Source of the DNA: Somniosus microcephalus
Lineage: Eukaryota
Assembly: GCA_052327205.1 (NCBI GenBank)
Contig: CM126225.1
Location: forward strand, 10,540,001-10,604,000
Direction: 5' to 3'
Length of the DNA: 64,000 nt
Each line of letters opens with the position of its first letter. The stretch's first letter is position 1. Positions 20,775 to 21,360 of the stretch are shown piece after piece. The notes under the pieces were generated by a model. That model worked only from the letters and a program-made list of their open reading frames with translations. It was not told where the DNA came from and searched no databases. Both the position numbers and the translations under genes were made by a program.

Positions 20775-21360
20775 AAGTGTCTCGGCGTCTGGAAACTCGG
20801 CAGCGTTTAAAAGGGGGAGAGAGAGTGAGAGAGAGAGAGAGAGAGACAGACAGATCGGGCTGCCAGGAGCCAAGCACTGTGCACAGGGACCCAACTGCAA
20901 TTCTGCAACAAATGCACCCAGGGCTGGCTGATGGGCTGGGCTGGGAGGCGAAGGGGAGCGCCTGGGTTCAGTCTCAGCGGCCGGGGCCAGAACGGGCAGC
21001 GGAGCAACGGGGACAATTGGCAGAAAAACAATGAAAAGTAGCAGGTCGGTGGAAATGAATTCAAGGCAAGCGGCCATCTTGAAATGGAAACAGCAATAGG
21101 ATGTCAAGCGAGCTCGCACCACTAATTTTCGTTCAACTGAAGACATCTGGCGGGCGGCTGGCCCCGTCTCCCGGGCCGGTGGGAAAGCAGAATATTTGTT
21201 AAAGCGGCCCTTACCTGATCGCCCGGCGCCCGCCGTCTCTGGTGCCAGTAATCGAGCAAAGAAACAGTGTTTGGTCAGAGCTCTTACTACAGGCTCCGCG
21301 CACAAAATGGCTTTTTTTTCAGCTCCTGATCGACCGCCCCGTTTGATCACGTGGGTTCAT
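18540..21360 (-). promoter_or_regulatory. CpG island / promoter and non-coding first exon(s) of PCGF2
   Basis: Strong CpG and GC enrichment (core about 20210-21360) upstream of the ATG exon. Minus-strand donors CAG|gtaagg (exon end 21215) and AAG|gtgagc (exon end 19487). E-box CACGTG 21348-21353. YY1-type CAAGATGGCCGC 21070-21081 (-). Confidence 0.7.
20747..20852. repeat. (GA)n tracts inside the CpG island
   Basis: Two (GA)n runs directly visible. Confidence 0.9.

What the first reader, a model, noticed from the sequence alone, without database searches (positions are those of the whole stretch)
21019..21090. YY1-motif/uORF block that appears shared with the human BMI1 5' UTR (candidate pre-duplication conserved element)
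Seen, minus strand: ttcaagATGGCCGCTTGCCTTGAATTCATTTCCACCGACCTGCTACTTTTCATTGTTTTTCTGCC. It contains a YY1 consensus (CAAGATGGCCGC; YY1 is the homolog of the Drosophila Polycomb recruiter Pho) whose ATG at 21077 has a strong Kozak context (A at -3, G at +4). The ATG opens MAACLEFISTDLLLFIVFLPIVPV..., with a hydrophobic N-terminus, running to 20694 if unspliced. From memory, the human BMI1 5' UTR has a very similar block (ttcaagatggccgcttggctcgcattcatttt...ctttcattgtcttttccgcc, uORF MAAWLAFIFC*). If so, this element predates the BMI1/PCGF2 duplication and the shark-human split. It could be a dual DNA (YY1) and RNA (uORF) control module setting canonical PRC1 dosage. I could not identify the donor that ends this exon.
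Basis: partly seen in the sequence, partly recalled or inferred. Interest (0 to 1): 0.7.

Follow-up and report, generated by a model that had tools for sequence, protein, structure and literature searches.

The report
Ancient promoter element shared by BMI1/PCGF2
A 60-base stretch near the start of this fish's (probably a shark's) gene, inferred from its neighbours to be PCGF2, also sits at the same place in the sister gene BMI1, so it likely predates their duplication; it likely works as a YY1 binding site of a shared promoter rather than through a small protein, because the spliced mRNAs found here cut it out.

Summary
The block is real and more than a motif. The window gene is PCGF2 by synteny. 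The same genome's BMI1 carries the block at the matching place (77% over 61 nt; 0 of 5000 shuffles reach the score), and the extended pattern occurs only at these two loci in 6.4 Gb. Published human and chicken BMI1 RT-PCR primers match its 5' end (17 nt; 19 of 20 nt). The uORF part fares worse. One RNA contig per gene splices from a homologous donor upstream of the block, leaving it in intron 1; the PCGF2 leader has no ATG. The ORF is 127 codons here against 11 in BMI1, with indels between them, and conservation continues past the BMI1 stop. A weaker unspliced contig does cover the block, and human/mouse ribosome profiling lists a 10-codon BMI1 uORF that probably is this one. Best reading: a duplicated promoter-proximal YY1 element whose ATG becomes a uORF only in isoforms that keep it. 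YY1 binding and human PCGF2 were not tested.

The parts
21025..21081 (-). Conserved block of the finding: YY1 motif (21081-21070, ATG 21077), TTCATT (21059-21054) and a T-rich tail with CATTGT (21033-21028; SOX-like, label recalled)
   Evidence: 77% over 61 nt to G000:C5:72268668-72268609, E 2e-5 in 200 kb; shuffles; extended pattern at 2 places in the genome; human and chicken primers
21322..21375 (-). Second shared block: E-box CACGTG (21353-21348) and GC box GGGGCGG (21340-21334)
   Evidence: 80% over 54 nt to C5:72269022-72268969, E 6e-7; 0 of 5000 shuffles; pattern at 2 places in the genome; human BMI1 promoter primer at -203 matches it
21304..21311 (-). GCCATTTT: reverse YY1 core / initiator-like sequence at the 5' end of the RNA contigs of both paralogs
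   Evidence: present in both; contigs begin at 21308 and C5:72268975; a contig end does not prove a start site
21215..21308 (-). Non-coding first exon of the spliced PCGF2 form found
   Evidence: X1 contig of 1182 nt, depth 13.7, lies on 21308-21215; its loose end matches the start of the first coding exon in 28 of 30 letters (compared by eye)
21209..21217 (-). 5' splice site CAG|GTAAGG, homologous to CAG|GTAGAA of BMI1; 137 nt upstream of the ATG of the finding
   Evidence: best donor score in 21400-18400
21191..21212 (-). Short patch at the start of intron 1 also seen in BMI1 (AACAAATATT-like)
   Evidence: score 24, 9 of 5000 shuffles as high; weak
20694..21077 (-). Unspliced 127-codon ORF from the YY1 ATG (150 codons from 21146); not conserved as a protein
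   Evidence: the BMI1 counterpart stops after 11 codons
20721..21166 (-). Stretch covered by weak unspliced contigs: possible second start, retained intron, antisense RNA or DNA
   Evidence: X1 contig 21166-20979, depth 2.6; X2 contig 20969-20721, depth 4.5
10301..10428 (-). First coding exon of PCGF2 (acceptor before 10428, start codon 10411)

Best explanation
The block is one of two short non-coding stretches shared by the 5' ends of the genes inferred to be PCGF2 and BMI1, likely inherited from their common ancestor, and it likely acts on DNA as a promoter-proximal YY1 site with a second, T-rich site beside it. Shown: shared order and similar spacing of E-box/GC box, GCCATTTT, short first exon, splice donor and block in both genes; spliced contigs of both genes that leave the block in intron 1. 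Inferred: MYC/USF-type and Sp-type factors at the upstream block and YY1 at GCCATTTT and at the block set a steady, housekeeping-like transcription level for both canonical PRC1 subunits. Because the YY1 motif contains ATG in a good context, any isoform that keeps the block (downstream start, as in tetrapod BMI1 mRNAs) gains a uORF; that role appears kept in the BMI1 line (10-11 codons) but not in this PCGF2 copy, where the early stop is lost.
For: Paralog block and second block are the only two hits under E 0.2 when 13 kb of the PCGF2 5' region is aligned to 6.5 kb of the BMI1 5' region; their identity (77%, 80%) is close to that of the coding exons (79-85%). Extended patterns at 2 places in 6.4 Gb, backward controls 0; 3 of 3 other genomic copies of the 15-nt core lack the tail (scores 10-13 against 31) and the upstream block (17-19 against 53). 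Spliced contigs skip the block in PCGF2 and BMI1; the 111-nt PCGF2 leader has no ATG. Indels inside the ORF, 127 against 11 codons, 6 differences in the first 27 nt of which 3 at codon positions 1-2. The conserved tail lies beyond the BMI1 stop and is also in a human primer. No donor above the cut-off between the block and 20050 in PCGF2, while BMI1 has one 141 nt after its ATG. The human counterpart of the upstream block is a described E-box/Sp1 promoter.
Against: No binding or reporter data. The splice evidence is one contig per gene, from a closely related organism (A); raw reads are very few. An unspliced contig covers the whole block in the same run at about a fifth of the depth. In human and chicken BMI1 the block is in the mRNA and a matching uORF is listed as translated in human and mouse. 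A uORF can repress without a conserved length. My donor matrix is crude: the donor that BMI1 really uses fell under its cut-off, so a weak donor after the block in PCGF2 is not excluded. In the BMI1 lay, repeats on both sides of the block were skipped, which can hide reads.
Confidence: 0.6

Rival explanations
1. Ancient dual switch: both genes have two starts. The upstream start with the early donor gives a leader without the block; a start inside intron 1 gives a leader with the YY1 ATG as a repressive uORF. The block is kept in PCGF2 partly for this translational role.
For: X1 contig begins at 21166, 48 nt after the donor, and spans the block; no X1 or X2 contig lies on 18050-20720. The human reference start lies about 200 nt after the E-box block, whereas the contigs here start 45-60 nt after it, so two starts exist across species. 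Human and mouse uORF rows. uORF of 11 codons in this genome's BMI1.
Against: No joint from a donor after the block in either gene; the PCGF2 ORF lost the early stop; 0 PCGF2 rows in the uORF tables of PMC4739776; contigs carry no strand and no start.
Confidence: 0.25
2. RNA-level element in the nascent transcript: the U-rich tail binds a splicing or 5'-UTR protein that favours the early donor or, in block-containing BMI1 mRNAs, supports the reported IRES-like activity; the YY1 match is secondary.
For: Block 137 and 188 nt after homologous donors; no AG for 103 nt (window) and about 68 nt (BMI1) after the ATG; a review states IRES activity for the BMI1 5' UTR.
Against: The best-conserved part is the exact YY1 motif; the two copies fold differently (-5.1 and -14.6 kcal/mol, no shared structure).
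Confidence: 0.1
3. Conserved peptide (CPuORF or small protein) encoded by the ORF.
For: First three codons identical in both paralogs; hydrophobic start.
Against: Indels, lengths of 127 and 11 codons, no excess of third-position changes, microsatellite-derived body.
Confidence: 0.03
4. Chance or recent copying: two common motifs side by side, a repeat, or gene conversion.
For: The tail alone is T-rich and short; one unrelated tile of 798 scored 32 against 31. The search patterns were drawn from both copies after the fact.
Against: Two collinear blocks plus donor at matching places; unique in the genome; present in tetrapod BMI1; different contigs, divergence like the coding exons.
Confidence: 0.02

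Closest known systems
Duplicated conserved non-coding elements (dCNEs; McEwen et al. 2009, PMC2781166) and paralogous CNSs (Matsunami and Saitou, PMC3595034)
   Same: Short non-coding blocks kept beside both members of an old paralog pair, in matching position.
   Different: Here the shared unit is a promoter with first exon and donor, not a distal enhancer. BMI1 and PCGF2 do not occur in the main text of either paper or in the 3 readable supplement tables of PMC3595034.
TISU / downstream YY1 motif with a built-in ATG (Elfakess and Dikstein 2008, PMC2518114)
   Same: AAGATGG core that can serve YY1 on DNA and initiation on RNA.
   Different: TISU lies within 30 nt of the start and opens the main ORF; this lies 231 nt after the contig start, in intron 1 of the form found, and has GCCGC for GCGGC.
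Human BMI1 core promoter and 5' UTR (PMC3939403, PMC4593320, PMC4739776)
   Same: E-box and GC boxes; block present in the mRNA leader; uORFs listed as translated.
   Different: Described for BMI1 only; I found no paper that links it to PCGF2 or tests this YY1 site (listings).

Membership tests
Duplicated conserved non-coding element | Significant similarity between paralogous loci | tested here: met
Duplicated conserved non-coding element | Same position and orientation beside paralogous genes | tested here: met
   synteny
Duplicated conserved non-coding element | Not explained by protein coding or a repeat | tested here: met
   ORF not shared; one match of the region in the genome, two of the pattern
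Duplicated conserved non-coding element | Conserved in orthologs of both copies across vertebrates | tested here: inconclusive
   BMI1 side: primer-length matches in human and chicken; PCGF2 side: only the close relative A
Duplicated conserved non-coding element | Regulatory activity in a reporter | not testable with these tools
   none
YY1 binding site | Match to the AANATGGC core with conserved flanks | tested here: met
   consensus recalled, core also given in PMC2518114
YY1 binding site | YY1 occupancy | not testable with these tools
   7 papers hold both 'BMI1 promoter' and 'YY1'; seen as listings only
TISU | Within about 30 nt of the transcription start, opening the main ORF | tested here: not met
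   231 nt after the contig start and intronic in that form
Conserved uORF of PCGF2 | ATG present in the mature mRNA leader | tested here: inconclusive
   absent from the spliced form; covered by a weak unspliced contig
Conserved uORF of PCGF2 | Frame, length or peptide shared with the BMI1 uORF | tested here: not met
   127 against 11 codons, indels
Conserved uORF of PCGF2 | Ribosome occupancy | not testable with these tools
   human and mouse BMI1 rows only; none for PCGF2
Polycomb response element (Pho/YY1 recruitment) | Recruits PRC1/PRC2 and silences a reporter | not testable with these tools
   nothing here bears on it

The most novel reading that the evidence does not exclude
BMI1 and PCGF2 keep, from before the vertebrate genome duplications, a complete two-start promoter in which one YY1 motif serves twice: as a DNA site, and as a uORF start that is switched in or out of the mRNA by the choice of start site and donor, setting the dose of both canonical PRC1 subunits.
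Probability: 0.25. Interest if true: 0.7.

Novelty: new member of a known kind. Interest (0 to 1): 0.45.

Why it matters
BMI1 and PCGF2 are the two alternative RING-finger partners of canonical PRC1 (PMC9916924), and BMI1 dose matters in stem cells and cancer. A promoter plan shared since their duplication points to an old common input (E-box, GC box, YY1) and names a few bases to mutate. It also flags that a widely used human BMI1 qPCR primer sits in the block, so it would miss any isoform that splices the block out, if such a form exists in mammals.

Tried and rejected
DNA search of the own genome with 20990-21230 found only itself: too insensitive for the paralog, which turned up through the protein. 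No listed holder run is on record as RNA: no evidence either way. Reads of X8/X9 at 19067-19518 are poly-G artefacts; the strong donor at 19486 has no RNA support. X8 reads over 20988-21326 lie in the opposite mate direction to X9's; too few to call sense or antisense. COMM-domain search missed COMMD3; motif scan and PDB search found it. No shared RNA fold. In one search the BMI1 uORF start and one exon edge were off by one; corrected. The catfish primer hit is another gene, a chance match. The eIF4G2 preprint says nothing on a BMI1 uORF. Papers not held: the GENCODE Ribo-seq ORF catalogue, Xi et al. 2007, McEwen et al. 2006; the supplement of PMC7530721 on conserved uORFs could not be read; these may list the element. 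p53-like and hairpin readings of the CAAG..CTTG arms were considered and dropped (spacing wrong; 4-bp stem). Earlier findings: none near or by sequence.

Full report
Observation. The block stands as written on the minus strand: YY1-type motif at 21081-21070, ATG at 21077, frame open for 127 codons to 20694, with an earlier in-frame ATG at 21146. The good Kozak context is part of the YY1/TISU motif (PMC2518114, passages), so it adds nothing by itself.

Which gene. Coding exons of a BMI1/PCGF2-type protein lie on the minus strand from 10411 down. The window is G000:C24:10540001-10604000. Neighbours are CISD3 on one side and PSMB3, then a PIP4K gene, on the other. That is the order I recall for human PCGF2. 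A paralog, 97% identical in the first coding exon, lies on C5, with COMMD3 ending 1.6 kb before its first exon and a PIP4K gene 300 kb downstream: the order I recall for BMI1. The names rest on this synteny; no tree was built.

The block is shared with the paralog. It aligns to C5:72268668-72268609, 4.5 kb before the BMI1 start codon: 77% over 61 nt, E 2e-5 in 200 kb. Score 53 against a shuffle maximum of 31 (0 of 5000); without the 12-nt motif, 31 (2 of 5000 shuffles; 2 of 798 tiles, the true one included). The pattern motif + 4-10 nt + TTCATT occurs at 2 places in 6.4 Gb, these two; the pattern was drawn from both copies, so this shows rarity, not an unbiased probability. The 15-nt core alone occurs 5 times; the 3 other copies share neither tail nor upstream block.

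It is part of a larger shared plan. A second block, 21375-21322, with CACGTG and a GC box, aligns at 80% over 54 nt and its pattern is also found only at these two loci. Both genes then show GCCATTTT, a short exon, a donor and the block, in the same order. These two blocks are the only hits under E 0.2 between 13 kb and 6.5 kb of the two 5' regions; coding exons are 79-85% identical.

Tetrapods. I could not fetch vertebrate genomes, so I searched papers for short words from the two loci (31 papers listed; 5 opened). A human BMI1 RT-PCR primer shares 17 consecutive letters with the window's block (PMC2842237, passage); a second human primer matches the tail (PMC2206731, passages); a chicken Bmi-1 primer matches 19 of 20 letters (PMC10694250, passage). 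Their partners lie in coding exons, so the block is in spliced BMI1 mRNA there; by my arithmetic from the stated product sizes the ATG lies about 117 (human, if 144 bp refers to the first pair) and 121 nt (chicken) before the main ATG. A human promoter primer at -203 matches the upstream block in 15 of 16 (BMI1) and 13 of 16 (window) letters by eye, in a promoter described with a functional E-box and Sp1 sites (PMC3939403, passages; PMC4593320, passages). Supplements of PMC4739776 (rows searched) list 4 translated uORFs for human BMI1, none for PCGF2; one, 388-420 (33 nt), has a mouse counterpart 353-385. That this is the block's uORF is inferred from its length and from a recalled position of the main start codon. 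Human PCGF2 was not tested.

RNA. Four runs were laid on 18050-21410. An X1 contig (1182 nt, depth 13.7, close relative A) covers 21308-21215 and goes on with the start of the first coding exon (28 of 30 letters): the donor is CAG|GTAAGG at 21215/21214 and the ATG lies 137 nt inside intron 1. That leader is 111 nt with no ATG. Against this: an X1 contig of depth 2.6 covers 21166-20979, the whole block, unspliced, and an X2 contig covers 20969-20721; X8 has a read or two over the block. For BMI1, an X3 contig (depth 4.2) starts at the GCCATTTT, splices at the homologous donor to a 200-nt non-coding exon, and an X1 contig joins that exon to the first coding exon. Nothing lay on the block, but coverage was thin (2 reads each in X8 and X9) and repeats on both sides were skipped. 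So both genes have a form without the block; whether it is the only form is open.

The ORF. The BMI1 uORF has 11 codons, the window's ORF 127; indels shift the frame, 3 of 6 differences in the first 27 nt are at codon positions 1-2, and the conserved tail lies past the BMI1 stop. No donor above my crude cut-off lies between the block and 20050 here, while BMI1 has one 141 nt after its ATG (the cut-off missed BMI1's real upstream donor). PCGF2 thus kept the block while losing the short uORF, which favours a role on DNA.

Mechanism. Shown: shared architecture, splicing that skips the block. Inferred: a housekeeping-type promoter with E-box, GC box and two YY1 sites, copied with the gene, most likely in a vertebrate genome duplication (recalled for this gene block; both genes are present in fishes and mammals, PMC9916924, passages). 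The ATG in the motif becomes a uORF only where a downstream start puts the block into the leader, as in tetrapod BMI1. I give this 0.6, the ancient dual switch 0.25, an RNA-binding element 0.1.

Known or new. It works like a dCNE and meets the tests I could run; it is not TISU by position, and not shown to be a Polycomb response element. BMI1 and PCGF2 are not named in PMC2781166 (passages) or PMC3595034 (passages and 3 supplement tables). Searches (listings and abstract starts) showed no paper on a shared BMI1/PCGF2 promoter element. Xi et al. 2007, McEwen et al. 2006, the GENCODE Ribo-seq catalogue and the supplement of PMC7530721 were not seen and may bear on this. Verdict: real, old, a new member of a known kind; interest 0.45.

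Noticed in passing
G000:C5:72265703-72265504 (L031:1703-1504): BMI1 has a 200-nt second non-coding exon with three ATGs; the last is in frame with the main ORF and would add 12 residues at the N terminus.
   Followed up: partly
G000:C5:72268963, 72268667, 72267961, 72264167: Four AANATGGC (YY1 core) matches in the 5 kb before the BMI1 start codon, one right before it; background 0.26 per kb. PCGF2 has three in 11 kb (21304, 21080, 18360).
   Followed up: partly
G000:C5:72272445-72270562 (L031): COMMD3 ends about 1.6 kb before BMI1 exon 1, as tight as I recall for human, in a 6.4-Gb genome.
   Followed up: no
window 19486 and about 18778: A strong donor (AAG|GTGAGC) and an acceptor-like site in intron 1 with no RNA support in 4 runs.
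   Followed up: partly
window 20310-20535: A few X9 reads in intron 1, same mate direction as its exon reads; possibly pre-mRNA.
   Followed up: no
G000:C5:72326957-72327255: Cluster of several CAAGATGGC-type motifs on the plus strand, perhaps the internal promoter of a retroelement.
   Followed up: no
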